Below are positions 745 through 27,230 of a stretch of 64,000 nucleotides of DNA, in pieces. The stretch spans positions 28,582,001 to 28,646,000 of the forward strand of contig OX597842.1 in NCBI GenBank assembly GCA_951406725.2, given 5' to 3'. This DNA is from Octopus vulgaris (taxonomy: Eukaryota). The stretch's first letter is position 1, and each line of letters begins with the position of its first letter. Both the position numbers and the translations under genes were made by a program. The notes beneath the pieces were generated by a model. The model saw nothing but the letters and a program-made list of their open reading frames with translations, did no database searches and was not told where the DNA came from.

Positions 745-2151
745 ATGTTGTTGGCATCGTTTTTGTCTCGGGAGACAATGGAGTTGCGCATAAAATAGTC
801 CAGTCCGACTTTTACATTTCATGTCCTGACACATTTCCTGCTGTGGCTGTGTAGTTCTATCCTGGACAAACACTCCCTCTGGCAGGTACCGCAAATGTAG
901 CGAAGACTGTTCCTGGCTGGTTGTAATGTCATAGTTTCTTGTTGACGTCTTTTCTTGTCTTTCCATTTCTCCTCTCTCTCTCTGTCACTCCTTTGTATTC
1001 CCTCTTTTACGGTACGTCCCCAATCTCCACGGTTGCTGGCAATTGCTTCCCAACTGCTAATATTGATGTTGCAGGGCTTCATGTCCCTTTTGCAAACATC
1101 CTTGTAACGTAAGAACCGTCTACCCACAGACCTAGTACCCCAAGCAAGCTCTCTATAGAGTATGTCCTTGGGGATTCTGCCATCTTTCATACGGCTAACA
1201 TGCCCAAGCCATCTCATACGTCTTTGTGTGAGGAGTGCAAACATGCTTGGTATTCCTGCTTGCTTGAGGACATCTTTGTTGGGGATATGATTCTGCCATT
1301 TGATGCGGAGGATTTTCCGGAGGCAGCGCAGGTGAAAGATGTTTAGGCGACGCTCTTGGCGTGTGTATAGCGTCCAAGTCTCACTTCCATACAGTAGAGT
1401 GCTAAGTACACATGCCTGGTAGATCTTCATTTTCATGGTCTTGGTCAGCTTATTGTTGTCCCATGCCCGTTTGGAGAGTTGGGCCATCGCAGCAGCTGCC
1501 TTGCCAATGCGTATATTGAGCTCAGCGTCAAGGGATAGGTTGTAGGTGACGGTAAAGCCAAGATAGGTAAACTTCTCCACCTCCTGTAATCTGTGGTCTC
1601 CAATATGTATGTTTGGGATGTCCAGTGTAGCCTGACCCATGATGTTGGTCTTCTTAAGGCTGATAGCTAAGCCAAAGTTGTTACATGCTTGCTCAAAACA
1701 GTTAATGAGCCTTTGGAGGGCTTCTTCTGTGTGTGATACCAGAGCGGCATCATCAGCAAATAGCATCTCCTTGATCAGGACGTTTCTGATTTTGGTCTTG
1801 GCACGCAGGCGCGAGAGATTGAACAGTTTCCCGTCACTTCTACTGTGCAGAAACACTCCATCATCTGATGTCTGAAAGGCATGTGAGAGCAAGAGCGAGA
1901 AGAAAATGCCAAATAATGTAGGAGCGAGGACACAACCTTGCTTTACCCTGTTTTTCAATTGGAAGGCGGCTGATGTTGAACCATTGTGCTGTATGGTGCC
2001 TTGCATATCATCATGGAAAGACTTGATGATCCTCAGCAGCTTTGGTGGACATCCGATTTTTGGAGCAGGATGAAGAGGCCTTTTTTACTAACGAGTCAAA
2101 GGCCTTTGTTAGATCAATGAAGGCCATATATAGTGGCATTTTCTGCTCTCT
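745..2151 (-). mobile_element. 5'-truncated RTE-clade LINE (RT C-terminal half, C-terminal zinc finger, short 3' UTR)
   Basis: ORF 819-2006 has RT motifs (VKQGCVLAPTLF, LFADD, FTYLG, LLYGSETW) and a terminal CxxC...HxxxC-type finger (YICGTCQRECLSRIELHSHSRKC). Upstream 2040-2150 still encodes FIDLTKAFD across small frameshifts. Confidence 0.93.
819..2006 (-). pseudogene. LINE reverse transcriptase fragment (395 aa open)
   Basis: ORF track translation; lacks the endonuclease and the RT N-terminus. Confidence 0.9.
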
Positions 2152-6915: not shown

Positions 6916-7125
6916 GATTCAGTGAAACTGGAAATTGCGAACAATCATAAAAGAACACCCTTACTGGAAGCCGTGTCTGAAGCGCACATCGGAATAGTCC
7001 ACAAACTTACAACATGCGGTGCAAACATAAATGCCGTCGACAAGGATGGCAATAATTGTTTGCATATTGCAGCAGAGAAAGAGGAATTTCATTCTGAAAA
7101 GGAACATATTCCCATTTTAGATGAG
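6916..7125 (+). CDS. ANK-RING-death domain gene, ankyrin-repeat exon
   Basis: aag|GAT TCA GTG...GAT GAG|gtaag; encodes RTPLLEAVSEAHIGIVHKLTTCGANINAVDKDGNNCLHIAA (ankyrin consensus). Confidence 0.92.
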
Positions 7126-8904: not shown

Positions 8905-9083
8905 TGCTGTGCTAAGCTTGGGTTGTCAACCGAACAGAGGCTCTCTAATGTAGGAGTCGCTTACTATCTAGCCCACCAGGGGGCCAACTTGTACAGGAAA
9001 AATAATGAGAATGTAGCTCTATTGGACCTCATTGGGGATGCAGATTTGAAAGAAAAATTTAAAGTATTATTCCCCCCACAAAA
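8905..9083 (+). CDS. ANK-RING-death domain gene, last ankyrin-like exon (Mind-bomb-like)
   Basis: tttgtag|TGC...CAA AA|gtaagt, phase 0 to 2; CCAKLGLSTEQRLSNVGVAYYLAHQGANLYRKNNENVALLDLIGDADLKEKF resembles the pre-RING segment of MIB proteins. Confidence 0.85.
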
Positions 9084-13823: not shown

Positions 13824-13963
13824 ATGTATGTTTTGTGAAGTGAATGAAGCCAGCATGGAGTTACAACCCTGTGCACATACTGTTTTATGTGAAGATTGTA
13901 GCAAAATTCAACTTAAAAGATGCCCTAAGTGTAAAACATGTATAGAAAGCAAAAGGAGAGTTG
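13824..13963 (+). CDS. ANK-RING-death domain gene, C3HC4 RING exon
   Basis: ccacag|A TGT...GTT G|gtaag, phase 2 to 1; CMFC-x11-CAH-x3-CEDC-x7-CPKC (MIB/IAP-type spacing). Confidence 0.9.
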
Positions 13964-15222
13964 GTAAGAATATGATTTGATGATCTGTCTGTTTGTCACA
14001 TGACATTAGGGAATGGAATAATGTTGTATCGACCCAGATCTGTCATAATCTGACAGACGTATGATAAAAGATGTCCCAGGTGTCTTTTCTCTTTGATAGT
14101 ATATCCATGACTACACCCACTGAATATTGTCTTTATCCAAGTAGGAAACCTGTCCCACATCAAAAGAGTACTGTCTGCAACATAAGACTAATACGTTTTA
14201 CTGAAATATAAATGAAATATCAATAAATCTCCAAGGTCCCTTCAGTAAACATCAACTTTTTATATTCAGTTGTCAGCTTTTATATGAGGTTAATGATTTA
14301 TAAGTATCTTGGGAAACTGATAATTAAGGACAACAGTACTTCCTATAACATCACAGTCAGCTTTGTAATGTAAGAATTTCAATGACAAAATCTCAACTGA
14401 GAGTTTAAGGATCTGACTCTTAGCGAGTCTTATATATTCTTGAGAATGAATTCTAGTGTCCCATTTCAGATATAACTCCTTTGCAATAATGTGTAGATAA
14501 ACAGTTTTAAGTTAAGGAGGTTTTATACAAATGTAATGTTTCAGGATACCTGTTATCACTTTCTGCTCCACCTGTGTAGAACCAATCATTGCTCACCTGG
14601 AAAAAGAAAAAGCTGCTTATTAAGGAGGATGAATGACATTGAAATATCTTCAGGTATTTCCTGAATCAGGTGGTATTCTGGTGAAGTGTGATGTGGGCAG
14701 TTAAAATTAAAGATTACCAACAGTAACATATAAAAATGAGAGCTGGGGTATGTTTATCCTTCCTGAAGCAATGTGTCATGCCTTTGTGGCCAGATCTTTG
14801 AAGACCAGTTTGGTTGACACTGGAATTTAGCAGAAGATGAGAAGAATATTGGTTAGTGAAGGTTCGAGATGAGAGGACAATGGCATGTCATGTGACCAGC
14901 ACAGACATAACAAAGGAAAGACAAAACTAAGAGAAAAAGAGTGTTATGAAGTGATAACCAAGTGAGAGAATTTCAGAATTGTTAGATTAGTATATAGGAT
15001 GTCTTAATAGAAAGATGAGATTTAGAAAGGTTTGCCTATTTTGTTGTGGTTCTAAATATTGAACTATTATATAGTAACAGCTTAGAAAGTGTTGACCGAA
15101 AGCATAGTGGTCACCAATTGACTATTGATGATATGAATGCCTTACAAAAATGGAATATAGATTATTAAAAGAGACAAAGAAATTTTACTATGAAGTATAA
15201 AACTTTGAAATGCTTATTTCAG

Positions 15223-15273
15223 TGTGTCCAAAGTCTGAAGAAAAAGCAGTCAAGATGGTTGCAGAAGCTGTTG
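15223..15273 (+). CDS. Linker micro-exon 1 (51 nt, VCPKSEEKAVKMVAEAV)
   Basis: tatttcag| ... G|gtgagt; symmetric phase 1-1, open in the RING frame. Confidence 0.75.
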
Positions 15274-15388
15274 GTGAGTATAAAATAACTGTAATTGATT
15301 TCTATAAATTTTACCTTCACCTGAGATATATTATTTGTGTGAATGACTGAGAACAGGTTCCATTCTTAATTTCCAATTCTTATTTCAG

Positions 15389-15424
15389 AATGTCCAAAGT
15401 GTAAAGGAAAAGTAAAATCTTTTG
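15389..15424 (+). CDS. Linker micro-exon 2 (36 nt, ECPKCKGKVKSF)
   Basis: tatttcag| ... G|gtgagt; phase 1-1, open. Confidence 0.7.
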
Positions 15425-15539
15425 GTGAGTATAAAATAACTGTAATTGATTTCTATAAATTTTACCTTCACCTGAGATATATTATTTGTGTGAATGACTG
15501 AGAACAGGTTCCATTCTTAATTTCCAATTCTTATTTCAG

Positions 15540-15590
15540 AATGTCCAAAGTCTGAAGAAAAAGCAGTCAAGACGGTTGCAGAATCTGTTG
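15540..15590 (+). CDS. Linker micro-exon 3 (51 nt, ECPKSEEKAVKTVAESV)
   Basis: Same splice signals; phase 1-1. Confidence 0.75.
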
Positions 15591-15705
15591 GTGAGTATAA
15601 AATAACTGTAATTGATTTCTATAAATTTTACCTTCACCTGAAATATATTATTTGTGTGAATGACTGAGAACAGGTTCCATTCTTAATTTCCAATTCTTAT
15701 TTCAG

Positions 15706-15756
15706 TGTGTCCAAAGTCTGAAGAAAAAGCAGTCCAGACGGTTGCAGAATCTGTTG
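15706..15756 (+). CDS. Linker micro-exon 4 (51 nt, VCPKSEEKAVQTVAESV)
   Basis: Same splice signals; phase 1-1. Confidence 0.75.
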
Positions 15757-16540
15757 GTGAGTATAAAATATCTGTAATAAATTTCTATAAATTTTATCTT
15801 CACCTGAAATATATTATTTGTGTGAATGACTGAGAACAGGTTCCATTGTTACATTTCTTTCGAATGGTTAGCGATAAAAGTAATTCTATTCGTTACCTAC
15901 AAATGCAAGAATATCCAATAAAGGGGTTTTATAGAAATATGGAAACATGAGACACAGGAAAAATGTCTTTCACGATGAGGCCAAAATACAAAAGATAAAA
16001 TATAAACCCTGAAGCTGTTCTCTCCCCATAATGAGATACATTCACTTTTCTTTCATCTCATTGTTGTCTCTCTCTCTCCTTCCCTGTTTCTTCCCTTCAT
16101 CTCTCTCTCTCTCTCTCTCTATGCATCTACATGTAGCAGCCTCTGTACTTTCCAGTCGTGTAACAACATGAATTGTATTTAAAATATTGATATTACAGAA
16201 ATTTAATAAAATGTCCAGCAGTGTTGGCTCTGTTGCTAAAATGGTTAAATTAGAAAAAAAAAACAATAGAGTTAATATTGTCTTTTGAATGAAGGAAGAA
16301 AAACATTTTGTTGTTTAATGGTAAACAGGTGAGTTAATGACAGTGTTTGTTTGTTGTACGTTTTCAATAAGTTTACTGATTATTGTTGTTGATGTTCTTG
16401 TTGAACAAGATGGTTAAGTTGAAAGCTTACAAGTGTGATCACCCTGTCTTCTTTTTTTCACTGTTAGTAAATCTATCATTACATCCATTAAATGATGTCT
16501 TTGTCCAAGTAAGAAGCTTTGGTCTGCTGCTGAGACAATT

Positions 16541-16574
<34 letters not shown>

Positions 16575-18071
16575 TAAGATGGACACTGGTTGCAAGATAC
16601 AAAACAATCGATGTTATTGTCCTCATCATTTACCGTCTGCTCTCCTTGCTTCCATGTAATGGATGGGTGATCACTGTCCAAGTCAGTTCTTATTCAGAGT
16701 TACTGTCCCCCTTGACTGCTTGAGAAACACATCTCCCTTAAACATTCCACCTTTTCTATGGTGGGATGCCCTCCCCAACACCAACCACTTCATAAAGAGT
16801 CCTGAGTACATTTTAATGTGGCACAAGCACTAGAAAGATTTTCATGTGTCCAACATTGAAACTGGAATAGCTGTAGGTTGCACACAATCAGTCTCTTGGT
16901 TTGTGCTTGTTATGGGGGTCGGCAGATTTATGAGAAGAAATTACTCAGGCGAAATCACCTCAGAAGACATTCATGGTTGACATAAAAATGCTAACAAGAG
17001 ATCCAAAGTATATGCAATCAGTCCTAGATAGATTGGATGGACTAATTAATTGCTCAAGAATGCTGTTTGAAACAAATAATGAATGCATTCTGACATTGTG
17101 AAAGATCAACAGAAGCAAGTGAAGTTCAAAATAGCAGGAGAAACGATGTGAAAGGTTAAAGAGTAACTTGTAAAACGTTTTGGACTGTGGTAGACGATCT
17201 CATTGTCCGATAAGAGTAGAGGCATTGCAGAAACCGAGGATGGGCAATAAGCATTTGCCAAGTCAAAACTTCTGGGCAAAAACAAGATTTGGTGCTTGAA
17301 GTTTGATCTATATCACCATCTTGATAATATATTCTTAAATATCACTTCTTTTGTACCATTTCAGATGTTTTTCCTTTGCGATAATCTGTGTATGAACATT
17401 TGCATGTTGTTAAAGATGTTTTGTGCAAGTATACAGTGTTTTAGGATACTTGCTATCACTTTCTGTTTCACCTGTGTAGAACTAATCATTGCTCATCAGG
17501 AAAGAAAAGCATTTCATTAAGGAGTCCTTAAATATTTCCTGAATCAGATGAAATTCTGGTGAACTGTGAGTTGCATAGTTTAAAATTAAAGATTAAAAGC
17601 AGCAACGTTTGACAAAGATAACAGGTGTGACATGAGTTTGTGTCAAGGTCGTTGATGACCAGCTTGGTTGACATCAGAATTAAGCAAAAGATGAGGGGAA
17701 TGTTGATTAAGTGAAGTCCAGTGGTGAGGGGACAATGCCATGTCATAGGTTTAGCATGGATATAAGAGAGAAGAAAGATAAAAGGTGTTAACATGTGATC
17801 ATTAAATAAGATGATTGCAACGTTGTTAGATTAAGTAGGATGTCTTAAGAGAAAAAGGAGGCTTATGAAGGTCAGTCTATTTTGTTATGGACCTAAATAT
17901 TGAGCCATTATATAGGACCACTGTAGGAAGTATAAAAGTGTCAACCAAACCTATAGTGGTCAGAAGTTGTCCATTGATGATAGGAGTGTCTTACAATAAT
18001 AATATATAAACCATTAACAGAGATCGGGAAATTGTGCTATGAAGTGTAAAATTTGGAAATATTTATTTCAG

Positions 18072-18143
18072 AGTCTGTAATGGTAGAGGAGAAGCATCTT
18101 CATAGGGTGTCCCAAAAGTTGGCAGGTAAATGGATGGAACTTG
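18072..18143 (+). CDS. ANK-RING-death domain gene, death domain exon 1 (ESVMVEEKHLHRVSQKLAGKWMEL)
   Basis: tatttcag|AG...CTT G|gtgagt, phase 1-1; L..VS.KL...W..LG is the death-domain helix 1-2 pattern. Confidence 0.85.
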
Positions 18144-19132
18144 GTGAGTATAAAATACCCAATTAATTTCTATAAATTTTACTTTCAGCTAAACTTTTGT
18201 TTGTTTGAATGACTGAGAACCGGTTCCATTCCTAATTTCCAATTGAAAGTTTAGCTAAAAAGTAAAGCTATCACTGATATTTCATAAAATATCTACAGAC
18301 GTCAGCACGGTTGTAAAATGTATAAATTAGAAGGTCCAGTAGAGTTAATACTATCGTTTGTAAAAGGGGACTCAAAAATATTGTTGTTTAAGAGTAAACA
18401 GGTGAATTAATGACAATGTTTTTGCTTGTTTACACTTTTACTAAGTTTACTAGTAGAGTGTTGTTGTTGTTGATGTTTATTTCGGCAGATATCTGCCTTA
18501 ATCTGGCAGAATTAAGGGGAAAGGGTTCCATTGCTCTTTCTCTTGGGTGAAGAGGACCACATTATCAAGTGTAACCTTTTTAAAATGAGAGTGTGCATTG
18601 TGTGGGACATGTTGTCATCTCTCCCCTGGCCAGTCTGTTTTTCTATATTTACTGTAATTCTTTAGTCCCAGGTCAACATATATTTCCTGTCTCTATAGAA
18701 GACAGGCCCCATTGTTGATTGTGTTCATGGCTGGATTGAACTCAGCATTGTAAGTTAATGAAACACTCATTTATATTAGAAGAAAAAGAATCTCAACAGA
18801 AAATTCAAACTCAACTTGATCTTGTTTCTCAATTGAAATCATTTCACTCTCCTTTACATTACAAATGTCACATGGAAAGGCATGAACATCACAATATCCC
18901 ATTTCCCCTTCTCCGACAGTTTAACACAACATAAAATATCATTTATACAATGCTCCTATTATTTACAGCAATGTCTTCTACCTCCCTATGGTACCTATAT
19001 ACATCTAGATAGAATGAAGCATAGAGAAATGTCTTTACCAGGTACATTGAGCGGTGCTGGGGATTAGATTTGAACCTTTGATCCCTGACTCAAGGGATCA
19101 TGACAATATCCCCTGAGTCAGCTGATAGAAAC

Positions 19133-21848: not shown

Positions 21849-22054
21849 GAAGGGAATTAGAAATTAAACAAACTGACCTGGAAATCATCAGGCATGACTA
21901 TCCTCAAAGCGTTAGGGAACAAGGCTTCCAGATGCTGCTCAAATGGCATCAGCTTTGTGATCGAGAGAAACATACACTTCAAATATTAAAAGCAGCTCTT
22001 AAAGAAACTGAATGTTATGATGCACTCAAATGTTTACCATCAGAATTCAATTGA
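21849..22054 (+). CDS. ANK-RING-death domain gene, terminal death domain exon
   Basis: ttttgcag|GA AGG...TGA; GRELEIKQTDLEIIRHDYPQSVREQGFQMLLKW...LKAALKETEC, a typical death domain. Confidence 0.9.
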
Positions 22055-22181: not shown

Positions 22182-23928
22182 GGATCTTTACCTTTTGACC
22201 GGCAGATTTAGAAAATAATTTTTTGGAACTAAACACTTTCAAACTTCGTATTCTGGTAGAATGTGTCGTATAAAACATCTTTTACTCTTATCGTTTTTGA
22301 GAAAAGTTTATATTTACAAAGTTATTTCGTGTTAAATTTGTCGTATTTCGGTAATTTCAACCAATCAATGGCGTGTATTCATCTGAATAAAATTACTGCC
22401 GTTGTTTGTCAACAACAACTTCTGGCGGTGTATATTTCGTTTGTCACTGTTATTTATGACATATTTCATCTCAGTTATGTTTGTATGAAAAACGAGTCTA
22501 TCTGAAACATGTTTACTTCATGGCACCACCAGAATCGTTCGTGCATTTCTACTGGTTTTAGTTGTTTTTTCCTGTTTTTCAGCTACTATTTTCGCTAAGA
22601 CTTTTTTAACCCTAACCCTAAAACCCTAGCCCTAACACTAAAACCCTAGCCCTAACACTAAAACCTTAACTCTAACCCTAAAACCCTAAACCTAACCCTA
22701 AAACCTTAGCCCTGACACTAAAACCCTAGCCCTAACACTAAAACCTTAACTCTAACCCTAAAACCCTAACCCTAACCCTAAAACCTTAGCCCTGACATTA
22801 AAACCCTAGCCCTAACACTAAAACCTTAACTCTAACCCTAAAACCCTAACCCTAACACCTTAGCCCTGACATTAAAACCCTAGCCCTAACACTAAAACCT
22901 TAACTCTAACCCTAAAACCCTAAACCTAACCCTAAAACCTTAGCCCTGACACTAAAACCCTAGCCCTAACACTAAAACCTTAACTCTAACCCTAAAACCC
23001 TAACCCTAACACCTTAGCCCTGACATTAAAACCCTAGCCCTAACACTAAAACCTTAACTCTAACCCTAAAACCCTAAACCTAACCCTAAAACCTTAGCCC
23101 TGACACTAAAACCCTAGCCCTAACACTAAAACCTTAACTCTAACCCTAAAACCCTAAACCTAACCCTAAAACCTTAGCCTTGACATTAAAACCCTAGCCC
23201 TAACACTAAAACCTTAACTCTAACCCTAAAACCCTAACCCTAACACCTTAGCCCTGACATTAAAACCCTAGCCCTAACACTAAAACCTTAACTCTAACCC
23301 TAAAACCCTAAACCTAACCCTAAAACCTTAGCCCTGACACTAAAACCCTAGCCCTAACACTAAAACCTTAACTCTAACCCTAAAACCCTAACCCTAACAC
23401 CTTAGCCCTGACACTAAAACCCTAGCCCTAACACTAAAACCTTAACTCTAACCCTAAAACCCTAACCCTAACCCTAAAACCTTAGCCCTGACACTAAAAC
23501 CCTAGCCCTAACACTAAAACCTTAACTCTAACCCTAACCCTAAAACCCTAACCCTAACCCTAACACCTTAAAGCTAAAACCAGTACAAACGCACGAACGA
23601 TGTCATAAATAACAACAACAAACGAAATATATACCACCAGTTGTTGTTGACAAACATCATCATCATCATCATCATCCTTTAACATCTGCTTTGCATGCTA
23701 GCATGGGTTAGCAGTAATTTTATTCAGCTGAATACACATCATTGATTGGTTGAAATTACTGAAATACGACAAATTTAACACGAAATAACTTTGTAAATAT
23801 AAACTTTTCTCAAAAACGCTAAGAGTAAAAGATGTTTTATACGACACATTCTACCAGAATACGAAGTTTGAAAGTGTTTAGTTACAAGAAATTATTTTCT
23901 AAATCTGCCGGTCGAAAGGTAAAGATCC
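22182..23928. mobile_element. Non-autonomous long-TIR (foldback; Merlin- or MULE-like) DNA transposon with telomere-like core
   Basis: Ends GGATCTTTACC...GGTAAAGATCC; inverted arms ~22182-22561 and ~23574-23928; 8-bp direct repeat GGATTTGG at 22174-81 and 23929-36. Confidence 0.9.
22607..23570 (+). repeat. Interstitial telomere-like (CCCTAA-derived) higher-order repeat, 20-bp monomers in 80/75-bp units
   Basis: Unit aaaaccctagccctaacact-aaaaccttaactctaaccct-aaaaccctaaacctaaccct-aaaaccttagccctgacact, repeated roughly 11-12 times. Confidence 0.92.
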
Positions 23929-25579: not shown

Positions 25580-27230
25580 CTAGCAGAATTGCCCGGCGTT
25601 GCTCGGGGCTCAATTGCTTGAAAGTACTGTTAATGATTGCACTGAATTATGATGATTATTCAGGCAAATATTGATATAAGCTTACGGTGGGAGATAAGGA
25701 CTTAACGATCAAACGTGTGCCATTGCATTGTTTTGGGGGAACCAAATTTCTGATGAGCATTACCGGGGCACCAACTTTAAGTTTGAGAAAATGTGGTGGT
25801 AGTCCGGGGTGCTCAAAGGAATTGAGTACCTCTATTGGATAGTTGATGACGTCCTCTGGGTCAGGAGTTGTATCGATAGACTGATATACATAGACTTCCC
25901 CAGGAATGAGTTTTAGCATTTCATCATTAATATGGTGAACAGTTTTATTCCTCGGGGCCAGTATAGCCTTTTTGCCAATCCAATCCATATTCTGATAATT
26001 AGCTTGTAGATCTGGGAACACTGCATCTCTGAGATCAGAAGGCGTCTTAACAATGTTACAAATGGAATCGATGGCAATATTACCATTTTCATCCCCTGGT
26101 ATTTTGCCTTCGCCAAGTGCAAGGAGGGTGTGAGGAAATGCCGCTGATGTGATATTACGTCGCATATGAGCACGCATATTGGTGTGAAGTTTGAGAGTTA
26201 CTTCCCTTTATTTAAAAAAATATGCATTAAAATGGAAAAAAATGATGGTAAATTATTTGTAAAATCATAGACTCATCGTAGACGCGCTAATACCCAGAAG
26301 GGCTCGATATGAATCACGACTATAAGATACCCGGTTTTGGTTAAACTGCATCGCAAAATGTGGGAGTAGTTAGGAATCTAAATCGGAGTAGACAGACACA
26401 CAACCTTTCTTTTATATATAAATATTTTCATCCTAAAAAACTTTGTATGGATTGAATGGTTACCTCTATGGAAATATATACACGCACATTATACATACAT
26501 GTGTGTATAGATGAATATATAAATACATTTAAATATCTATATACACTTTTGGGCGATCTTTCTGTTTATTAGAGATAACTTTAGATCTTATTTTCGTCCT
26601 AAAAAACTTTGTATGGAGTGAATGGTTACCTCTATGGAAATATATACACACACATTATACATACATCTGTGTATAGATGAATATATAAATACATTTAAAC
26701 ATCTATATACACTTTTGGGCGATCTTTCTGCTACTTGGATATAGGTCTTATATTCGTCCTAAAAAACTTTCCTGTCACACTCACGCACACGCACACACAC
26801 ACACACACGCACCCTCACACACACACACACGCACACATACACACACTCACACACACGCACACACACACGTTAGCTTACAATTTTATTTATATATTTGCGT
26901 GTCTATGTGTGTAAAGAGGAAGTGGCAGAGTGAAAGAGTCACTCAGTACAAAAAGTGAATTACTTTCACTTTATTCGTTGCACACTGTGTGTGTGCATGT
27001 GCGTGTGGTGTAGGCCACACTAAGAAAAGCATTTGACTTATACACCACAATGTGAGTTTTCTCTAAATTTTGCTTAATTGGGGTTGAAATTTTAAAAACT
27101 GGACCTGGCACGACCCGATGCATTCTACTGTTAAAAATGCTAGGTAAATTGTAATTGAAGAAATCCTATATTGTAGATTTCTATAAGAGACAAAGGGAGG
27201 CAGATAAAATCTGCCTTTTATAATAAGAGA
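25580..27230 (-). mobile_element. Internally deleted Helitron carrying a PIF1-type helicase fragment
   Basis: On the minus strand: 5' TC (27230), 3' hairpin cccgagcaacgccggg then CTAG (25580-83), inserted at an A|T site. An internal ~168-bp tandem duplication lies at ~26425-26730. Confidence 0.85.
25656..26200 (-). pseudogene. Helitron RepHel PIF1 helicase fragment
   Basis: KAILAPRNKTVHHIN, YPIEVLNSFEHPGLPPHFLKLKVGAPVMLIRNL..CNGTRL are PIF1 motifs. Confidence 0.9.

What the first reader, a model, noticed from the sequence alone, without database searches (positions are those of the whole stretch)
14460..18480. Micro-exons appear to be born from a duplicated death-domain exon
Seen: about 750 bp upstream of micro-exon 1, the intron start after it, and a block at ~16270-16410 are collinearly homologous to the flanks of death-domain exon 1 (17355-18071, 18144-18245, 18340-18480). 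The peptides align loosely (EEKAVKMVAEAV vs EEKHLHRVSQKL). Inference: the helix-1 exon was duplicated with its introns, shortened and then tandemly amplified. The protein may therefore carry extra helix-1-like segments that could swap into or modulate the death domain.
Basis: partly seen in the sequence, partly recalled or inferred. Interest (0 to 1): 0.7.

Follow-up and report, generated by a model that had tools for sequence, protein, structure and literature searches.

The report
Death-domain exon recycled into LC8 sites
In a large octopus family of ankyrin-RING-death-domain genes, the exon for the first death-domain helix was copied together with its introns, and many copies became tiny in-frame exons carrying a motif predicted to bind the dimer-forming hub protein LC8, so copy number and likely optional splicing could tune how these proteins pair up.

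Summary
Window 14432-15378 and 16191-16396 are collinear copies (69-73% identical) of the introns around death-domain (DD) exon 1. At 36 of 36 paralogous places examined, these flanks surround that exon, so they are not a dispersed repeat. The gene belongs to a large Octopus ankyrin-RING-DD family. Of 87 loci with DD exon 1, 70 carry upstream copies (170 in all), some still 72 nt long.

The helix-swap idea fails: the copies lost the helix core and model as disorder. Instead, 73 of 170 copies (0 of 87 DD1 exons) read [KR]x[TVIS]Q[TV] at one fixed register, the LC8/DYNLL docking motif. It also occurs in O. sinensis and O. bimaculoides models. A complex model placed a micro-exon-4-type peptide in the LC8 groove (0.71 against best control 0.29), possibly from memory of solved complexes.

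In this gene only micro-exon 4 keeps the motif, in a weak form. RefSeq models of the closest O. sinensis relative show 15 of 16 inclusion patterns. No reads were seen, binding is untested, and evidence of selection is modest. The scan noted this family before (e1-8662395) but not, in the notes shown, this origin or motif.

The parts
6916..7125 (+). Ankyrin-repeat exon of the host gene (further 5' ankyrin exons lie just upstream of the window, in L124)
   Evidence: Pfam Ank E 6e-8; upstream exons match P0001/P0007 at 95-100%
8905..9083 (+). Exon with the last, degenerate ankyrin-like helices before the RING
   Evidence: tblastn 97% to P0001; boundaries read from the sequence
13824..13963 (+). 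C3HC4 RING exon, complete, ends in phase 1
   Evidence: Pfam zf-C3HC4_3 E 5e-8; all eight ligands present
14432..16396 (+). Old duplicate of the DD-exon-1 unit (upstream intron, exon, downstream intron)
   Evidence: 69-73% collinear identity to 17327-18477
15268..15857 (+). Younger 166-bp tandem amplification of the exon plus the first 115 nt of intron
   Evidence: TRF period 166, 3.7 copies, 87% matches
15223..15273 (+). Micro-exon 1, 51 nt, phase 1-1; motif lost (Lys at the Gln position, Met at +1)
15389..15424 (+). Micro-exon 2, 36 nt, phase 1-1; motif deleted, carries a CxxC
15540..15590 (+). Micro-exon 3, 51 nt, phase 1-1; motif lost (Lys at the Gln position)
15706..15756 (+). Micro-exon 4, 51 nt, phase 1-1; keeps the LC8-type motif at codons 7-11 (15726-15740): Lys -3, Val -1, Gln 0, Thr +1, with Glu -4 and an unfavourable Val +2
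   Evidence: the same peptide in P0002 was placed in the LC8 groove by the complex model
17327..18477 (+). Parent-type unit: introns around DD exon 1
18072..18143 (+). Death-domain exon 1 (helix 1 to the conserved Trp), 72 nt, phase 1-1
   Evidence: 88% to P0004 393-417; Pfam Death covers P0004 401-480
21849..22054 (+). Death-domain exon 2, ending in the stop codon
   Evidence: Pfam Death E 1e-6; 100% to P0001

Best explanation
The micro-exons are shortened copies of death-domain exon 1 that lost the helix core and, across this octopus ankyrin-RING-death-domain family, often carry a motif predicted to dock the hub protein LC8 (DYNLL), so the likely spliced, disordered linker would hold a variable number of LC8 sites that pair two chains. 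Step 1 (shown): DD exon 1 is a symmetric phase 1-1 cassette and was duplicated with its introns more than once. Step 2 (sequence shown, order inferred): helix 1 already supplied acidic residues and Lys at -5 to -3 and sometimes Gln at 0; in one early copy the invariant Leu became Val/Thr and +1 became Thr, which made an LC8 motif, and later deletions gave 57-, 51-, 48- and 36-nt forms. Step 3 (shown): copies multiplied by kilobase duplications and by 166-bp tandem amplification, to 0-7 per locus within the 10 kb examined. Step 4 (annotation only): the exons are optional cassettes. Step 5 (predicted): LC8 dimers bind the motifs of two chains as beta-strands and bring their RINGs and death domains together, so the number of sites would set dimer strength. 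In this particular gene the system looks partly decayed: one of four micro-exons keeps a weak site.
For: Origin. 19 of 170 copies are still 72 nt. All copies as one clade is rejected (p-AU 0.017); the motif-bearing copies as one clade are not rejected (p-AU 0.65). Motif: 73 of 170 copies against 0 of 87 DD1 exons; 45 of 70 loci with copies have at least one, 36 with intact splice sites and frame. 33 of 86 distinct copy peptides carry it, all at codons 7-11, against a mean of 0.66 (maximum 5) in 2000 composition shuffles and 8 hits in 35,187 residues of other DD proteins; 30 of the 33 have Asp/Glu at -4. Among 22 lineages with 66% mean intron identity, Lys -3 is kept in 18, Gln 0 in 18 (12 CAG, 6 CAA) and Thr +1 in 15. 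O. bimaculoides RefSeq models carry up to four motifs (P0317), and one with this gene's RING type carries one (P0210). The consensus [D/S]K-x-[T/V/I]Q[T/V][D/E] is from the abstract of PMC3078936. The linker is low-confidence coil in AlphaFold2 (residues 320-390 under pLDDT 50). The genome encodes a canonical LC8 (L121). Complex model of two LC8 and two copies of P0002 597-627: score 0.71, best of 3 controls 0.29, runs agree in at least 93% of contacts, partner pLDDT at least 54; the mark was reached by 51 of 78 solved and 2 of 108 mismatched microbial pairs. The Gln contacts LC8 residues 62-64 and 35-36. Splicing: 21 RefSeq models of the closest O. sinensis relative show 15 of 16 inclusion patterns of four micro-exons.
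Against: No binding experiment exists. The complex pass may come from memory of solved LC8-peptide structures, the tool is untested on peptides and disordered chains, and DD helix 1 itself was not run as a control. Only 8 of 170 copies meet the full seven-position consensus. Val at +2, as in micro-exon 4 and 13 of the 33 motif peptides, is reported as poorly accommodated, and only 7 of 19 matrix-predicted motifs bound in that study (PMC6607443 section 9). The per-codon test against intron rates is weak: Lys 6 changes against 10.2 expected (P 0.08) and Gln 7 against 11.7 (P 0.05, uncorrected for 13 codons), while Thr +1 (14 against 10.4) and Val -1 (16 against 10.8) change as fast as neutral or faster. 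97 of 170 copies lack the motif, and 32 of 170 have a damaged splice site or frame. Three of this gene's four micro-exons lack it. The two O. vulgaris models of this locus (P0001, P0007) skip all micro-exons and DD exon 1. No RNA reads were examined, and cross-mapping among near-identical paralogues could inflate the RefSeq isoform count.
Confidence: 0.6

Rival explanations
1. The copies are tolerated by-products of an unstable, duplication-prone gene family. They act only as a variable-length spacer between RING and DD, or are rarely spliced, and the motif is a relic of one founding copy.
For: 32 of 170 copies are damaged and 97 lack the motif. Most codons change at or above the intron rate. 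A single origin of the motif-bearing copies is not rejected. No copy was detected in 11 of 34 loci with the RING in view. Several paralogues have broken RING or DD exons.
Against: Lys and Gln persist in 18 of 22 lineages with 66% intron identity. Lys -3 shows 2, 2 and 11 changes at codon positions 1, 2 and 3, and Gln uses both codons. The motif also stands in models of two other Octopus species. 138 of 170 copies keep AG, GT and frame.
Confidence: 0.27
2. In the chromosome-29 subfamily, including this gene, the micro-exons have moved on to a zinc-ligand role: a new CxxC supplies or competes with the last ligand pair of the RING.
For: Micro-exon 2 and many copies in this subfamily begin with CxxC, resembling the RING's own tail. 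In L040 and in the O. sinensis gene the RING exon has lost its last CxxC by an 18-nt deletion, and the first two micro-exons carry one.
Against: CxxC copies also follow complete RINGs (window, L043, L058, L060, L062, L066). AlphaFold2 does not fold the CxxC micro-exons onto the shortened RING of P0004 (320-390 under pLDDT 50). The trait is confined to one young subfamily.
Confidence: 0.08
3. One reading: the micro-exons encode extra helix-1-like segments that swap into or modulate the death domain.
For: Common origin and codon register with DD exon 1. A few young 72-nt copies keep some helix-like residues (L061 type, L074, L094).
Against: Helix-core Leu at codon 9 in 1 of 140 copies against 82 of 85 DD1 exons, Trp at codon 20 in 1 against 81, Leu at codon 4 in 11 against 66. 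The 51- and 36-nt forms have deleted the Trp segment. AlphaFold2 gives coil for the micro-exons and a similar DD with and without them.
Confidence: 0.03
4. The shared flanks are independent insertions of a dispersed repeat and have nothing to do with the exon.
For: The flank has 373 first-look candidates in the genome, of which only 40 were scored.
Against: 36 of 36 examined places hold a DD exon 1 at the homologous position. 257 of 266 profile hits of the donor-side intron follow an exon-like unit with the acceptor consensus. The homology runs through both splice sites.
Confidence: 0.01

Closest known systems
Multivalent LC8/DYNLL clients such as ASCIZ/ATMIN (PMC5963919, abstract read) and KANK1 linker L2 (bioRxiv 10.1101/2025.07.16.665182, start of abstract in a search listing)
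   Same: Several Gln-anchored motifs in a disordered region; LC8 occupancy is proposed to tune activity in ASCIZ.
   Different: Here each motif is its own optional exon, the exon descends from a helix of a folded death domain of the same gene, and the host is a RING/DD protein. Binding here is only predicted.
NCoR-family CoRNR boxes (PMC4554918, abstract read)
   Same: Gain of short linear motifs, gene duplication and alternative splicing give isoforms with different motif content.
   Different: The NCoR motifs arose inside one large exon that was later split. Here the motif arose in a duplicated globular-domain exon that was then amplified, and copy number varies between paralogues.
Mind bomb E3 ligases MIB1/MIB2 (the database label of these proteins)
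   Same: Ankyrin repeats followed by a zf-C3HC4_3 RING; sequence match to the solved MIB1 fragment 8v0e, E 3e-27.
   Different: No Mib-Herc2 or ZZ domain was found, there is one RING, and a C-terminal death domain is present. The MIB architecture is recalled, not from a call.
Tandem duplication of symmetric (phase 1-1) exons (general mechanism, recalled)
   Same: An in-frame cassette exon is copied with its introns and diverges.
   Different: The copy does not stay an alternative version of the same domain part; it becomes a disordered motif carrier and is added to, not exchanged for, the parent exon.

Membership tests
LC8/DYNLL client motif | Anchor [T/V/I]-Q-[T/V] with Gln at 0 | tested here: met
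   73 of 170 copies (pattern also allows Ser at -1); in the window, micro-exon 4 only
LC8/DYNLL client motif | Lys/Arg at -3 and a polar residue (often Asp) at -4 | tested here: met
   Lys in 18 of 22 lineages; Asp 17 or Glu 13 of 33 motif peptides at -4
LC8/DYNLL client motif | Asp, Glu or Pro at +2 | tested here: inconclusive
   Glu 11, Asp 4, Pro 1, but Val 13 of 33; window micro-exon 4 has Val, so not met there
LC8/DYNLL client motif | Motif lies in a disordered region | tested here: met
   AlphaFold2 pLDDT under 50 and no secondary structure over 320-387 of P0004; a prediction only
LC8/DYNLL client motif | Binds the LC8 dimer groove as a beta-strand | tested here: inconclusive
   Complex model passes (0.71 against best control 0.29) with contacts along LC8 59-70, but may reflect memory of solved complexes
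LC8/DYNLL client motif | Measured binding, or dimerisation of the client | not testable with these tools
   Needs ITC, pull-down or SEC-MALS
Mind bomb (MIB1/MIB2) | N-terminal Mib-Herc2/ZZ/Mib-Herc2 and REP region (recalled) | tested here: not met
   No such Pfam hit in P0001 or P0004; model P0007 starts with ankyrin repeats mapped to L124
Mind bomb (MIB1/MIB2) | Ankyrin repeats followed by zf-C3HC4_3 RING | tested here: met
Mind bomb (MIB1/MIB2) | Two or three C-terminal RINGs and no death domain (recalled) | tested here: not met
   One RING, then a Pfam Death domain
Death-domain helix 1 (swappable segment) | Hydrophobic core Leu4, Leu9, Leu16, Trp20 of DD exon 1 | tested here: not met
   11, 1, 19 and 1 of 140 copies against 66, 82, 82 and 81 of 85 DD1 exons
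Alternatively spliced cassette micro-exons | Canonical splice sites and preserved frame | tested here: met
   All four in the window; 138 of 170 in the family
Alternatively spliced cassette micro-exons | Inclusion and skipping seen in transcripts | tested here: inconclusive
   Database models only: 15 of 16 patterns in O. sinensis, variable inclusion in O. bimaculoides; skipped in both models of this locus. No reads seen.

The most novel reading that the evidence does not exclude
A helix-coding exon of a folded death domain was recycled into an LC8-binding motif exon and then used as a mobile, countable unit. An octopus-specific, fast-diversifying family of more than 100 ankyrin-RING-DD genes sets the LC8 valency of each protein by exon copy number and by combinatorial splicing, which gives a rheostat for the dimerisation of ubiquitin-ligase and death-domain signalling modules. 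The same exon is being re-duplicated and re-purposed today (young 72-nt copies; CxxC copies beside a shortened RING), so the full path from domain helix to linear motif is visible in one genome.
Probability: 0.4. Interest if true: 0.8.

Novelty: new variant of a known kind. Interest (0 to 1): 0.66.

Why it matters
Short linear motifs are usually thought to arise by point mutation in disordered sequence (recalled). Here intron homology shows a motif being made from a duplicated exon of a folded domain, with intermediates of 72, 78, 57, 51 and 36 nt still in the genome. If binding holds, one motif per optional exon gives a natural series with 0 to about 7 LC8 sites, which tests directly how LC8 valency controls a RING and a death domain. 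It also gives a first mechanistic lead for a large octopus gene family that databases label as MIB2-like. Nine paper searches of the held library listed nothing on this family or this route; subscription papers and supplements were not searched.

Tried and rejected
Dispersed-repeat origin of the flanks: rejected. Helix-1 swap: rejected. One duplication for all copies: rejected by the AU test on about 190 intron bases per unit (p 0.017, quick tree); short alignments and gene conversion limit this. Origin of the micro-exons from the RING tail: considered because micro-exon 2 resembles the end of the RING as a peptide, and rejected because the flanks are those of DD exon 1 and the shared Cys, Pro and Ser use different codons. 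Rescue of a shortened RING by CxxC micro-exons: not supported by AlphaFold2, left open. A per-codon selection test gave only marginal support. A joint test of motif retention against neutral drift, and pN/pS at the motif codons, were not carried out, so the strength of selection on the whole motif remains open. No RNA reads were examined, so splicing at this locus remains open. The PDB sequence search listed only ankyrin-repeat matches among its best 60 of 386. PMC8166818 has no mention of Mind bomb (passages), and bioRxiv 10.1101/2023.09.15.557927 has no passage on exons.
Full report
1. What the region is. The window holds the 3' part of a spliced gene on the + strand: ankyrin exons (6916-7125, 8905-9083), a C3HC4 RING exon (13824-13963), four micro-exons (15223-15273, 15389-15424, 15540-15590, 15706-15756), death-domain (DD) exon 1 (18072-18143) and DD exon 2 (21849-22054). 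Pfam confirms the ankyrin, RING and DD parts, and the 5' ankyrin exons lie just upstream, in L124. DD exon 2 is 100% identical to a protein labelled Octopus vulgaris, on a contig of the same length as C29. Databases call these proteins MIB2-like or ankyrin-3-like. They have one RING and a DD and no Mib-Herc2 or ZZ hit, so I do not file them as Mind bomb (its architecture is recalled).

2. BLASTN aligns 14432-15378 to 17327-18244 (68.9%, 984 columns, E 3e-115) and 16191-16396 to 18269-18477 (73.1%, E 3e-26). The alignment runs through acceptor, exon and donor. The micro-exons sit in a 166-bp array of 3.7 copies. All five small exons have CAG and GTGAGT boundaries and lengths divisible by three. 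The exon diverged more than its introns: micro-exon 1 and DD exon 1 share 22 of their first 50 bases.

3. The flanks are not a dispersed repeat. A genome search with the DD1 unit gave 373 candidates, of which 40 were scored. I examined 36 of those places, and all 36 hold a DD exon 1 at the homologous position. DD exon 2 has 134 matches among 150 scored candidates, some of them broken, so this is a large family. I fetched 100 stretches of 10 kb (L021-L120). Together with the window, 87 show a DD1 unit and 70 of these carry at least one upstream copy, 170 copies in all. DD1 was defined as the last unit before DD exon 2. L081 and L104 overlap, so one gene is counted twice, and copies more than about 9.7 kb from DD exon 2 are missed. 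Copies are mostly 51 nt (111); 19 are still 72 nt, and others are 78, 57, 54, 48 and 36 nt. In 11 of 34 loci with the RING exon in view no copy was detected; diverged copies could have been missed. On intron-flank trees, all copies as one clade is rejected (p-AU 0.017, 48 against 46 rows), while the 23 motif-bearing rows as one clade are not rejected (p-AU 0.65). The simplest history is one early copy that gained the motif and spread, plus later independent copies, such as the three in L094 that group with that gene's own DD1.

4. The copies are not spare helices. Leu at codon 9 stands in 82 of 85 DD1 exons and 1 of 140 copies, Trp at codon 20 in 81 and 1, Leu at codon 4 in 66 and 11 (frameshifted units and units under 51 nt were left out). 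AlphaFold2 on the closest O. sinensis relative with four micro-exons leaves residues 320-390 under pLDDT 50, without secondary structure up to 387, and builds the DD from its own exon. Without micro-exons the DD comes out similar.

5. What they gained. At codons 7-11, 73 of 170 copies and 0 of 87 DD1 exons read [KR]x[TVIS]Q[TV]. The LC8/DYNLL consensus is [D/S]-4 K-3 X-2 [T/V/I]-1 Q0 [T/V]+1 [D/E]+2 (PMC3078936, start of the abstract in the listing). Of 86 distinct copy peptides, 33 carry the motif, always in that register; composition shuffles give 0.66 on average (maximum 5 in 2000) and 55 distinct DD1 peptides give 0. Among 22 copy lineages (flank identity under 85%, mean 66%), Lys -3 is kept in 18, Gln 0 in 18 with both codons in use, Thr +1 in 15 and Val -1 in 13. 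Among 25 DD1 lineages the same codons are Lys 13, Leu 25, Gln 4 and Thr 3, so helix 1 was a few substitutions from the motif. Database models include these exons: 12 of the 53 best new hits of the profile search carry the motif, 2 of them long proteins with hits far from the DD. O. bimaculoides P0317 has four motifs, and P0210, with this gene's RING type, has one with Asp at -4. That suggests the window's micro-exons 1 and 3 lost the Gln secondarily (inference).

6. Tests of binding and selection, for and against. The genome encodes a canonical 89-residue LC8 (L121). A model of two LC8 chains with two copies of P0002 597-627, which contains the same peptide as micro-exon 4, scored 0.71 against a best control of 0.29. 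The runs agree in at least 93% of contacts and the partner's pLDDT is at least 54. The mark was reached by 51 of 78 solved and 2 of 108 mismatched microbial pairs; on eukaryotes by 39 of 65 solved pairs without a like older complex and 2 of 126 unrelated pairs. Residues 606-617 lie along LC8 59-70, and the Gln touches 62-64 and 35-36. LC8-peptide complexes are solved, so the pass shows likeness, not binding; peptides are outside the tool's calibration. Against the reading: only 8 of 170 copies meet the full consensus. Val at +2, as in micro-exon 4, is reported as poorly accommodated, and 7 of 19 predicted motifs bound in that study (PMC6607443, passages and section 9 read). A per-codon comparison with intron rates on 63 rows found Lys and Gln the least changed codons (6 against 10.2 expected, P 0.08; 7 against 11.7, P 0.05, uncorrected), but Thr +1 and Val -1 changed at or above the neutral rate. 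32 of 170 copies have lost a splice site or the frame. A joint test of motif retention was not carried out.

7. Splicing. For the closest O. sinensis relative I saw 21 RefSeq models, covering 15 of the 16 inclusion patterns of four micro-exons. O. bimaculoides models differ by single 17-18-residue exons. The two O. vulgaris models of this locus skip the micro-exons and DD exon 1, although models of paralogues include them. No reads were seen, and near-identical paralogues could inflate isoform counts, so optional splicing is likely but not shown here.

8. How it most likely works. Shown: duplication, loss of the helix core, fixed-register motif, variable copy number. Predicted: disorder and fit to the LC8 groove. 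Inferred: LC8 dimers bind two chains through the included motifs and bring RINGs and DDs together, so valency sets dimer strength, much as LC8 occupancy is proposed to grade ASCIZ activity (PMC5963919, abstract). My estimates: origin 0.97, LC8 binding by the better family motifs about 0.7, by micro-exon 4 about 0.5, regulation by exon count about 0.4. This gene belongs to a young chromosome-29 subfamily in which the motif is often lost and a CxxC is often gained; that may be decay or a second change of role.

9. Novelty. Exon duplication, multivalent LC8 clients and motif-controlling splicing (NCoR, PMC4554918, abstract) are each known. Nine searches of the held library listed no description of this family or of an LC8 motif made from a death-domain exon; I read listings only, except where stated, and no supplements. 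PMC12057147 was seen as abstract and outline. An earlier scan note describes the same family's variable ankyrin array about 0.95 Mb away (e1-8662395), and another reports an LC8 motif array in an unrelated gene of another genome (e1-9803425). Verdict: a new variant of a known kind, interest 0.66.

Noticed in passing
window 22182-23928: Right after the stop codon, a 218-nt inverted repeat pair (96%) encloses a telomere-like array of about 960 nt (22607-23572); it looks like a non-autonomous inverted-repeat element.
   Followed up: partly
L040 (RING at 978) and O. sinensis P0004: The RING exon has lost its last CxxC by an 18-nt deletion, while the first two micro-exons carry a new CxxC.
   Followed up: partly
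L061-L068, L098, L074, L094: Younger 72-nt copies of DD exon 1 without the motif sit upstream of the working DD exon 1, three in a row in L094: intermediate stages of the same process.
   Followed up: partly
G000:C1:102.71-102.73 Mb and C1:216.93-216.97 Mb: Tandem runs of DD-exon-2-like copies, nearly all with stop codons.
   Followed up: no
window 18072-18143; L046, L057: O. sinensis models also use an acceptor 15 nt inside DD exon 1, and two paralogues have a fixed 57-nt DD exon 1.
   Followed up: no
P0217 (O. bimaculoides, labelled GPR126-like): A 1283-residue receptor model ends in a death domain of this family's type.
   Followed up: no
L045, L048, L053, L056: RING exons in several close paralogues are frameshifted, shortened or have lost ligands, which points to fast birth and death in the cluster.
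   Followed up: no
window 819-2084 (-) and 25656-26207 (-): ORFs that look like a LINE-type reverse transcriptase end and a PIF1/Helitron-type helicase piece (by recall).
   Followed up: no
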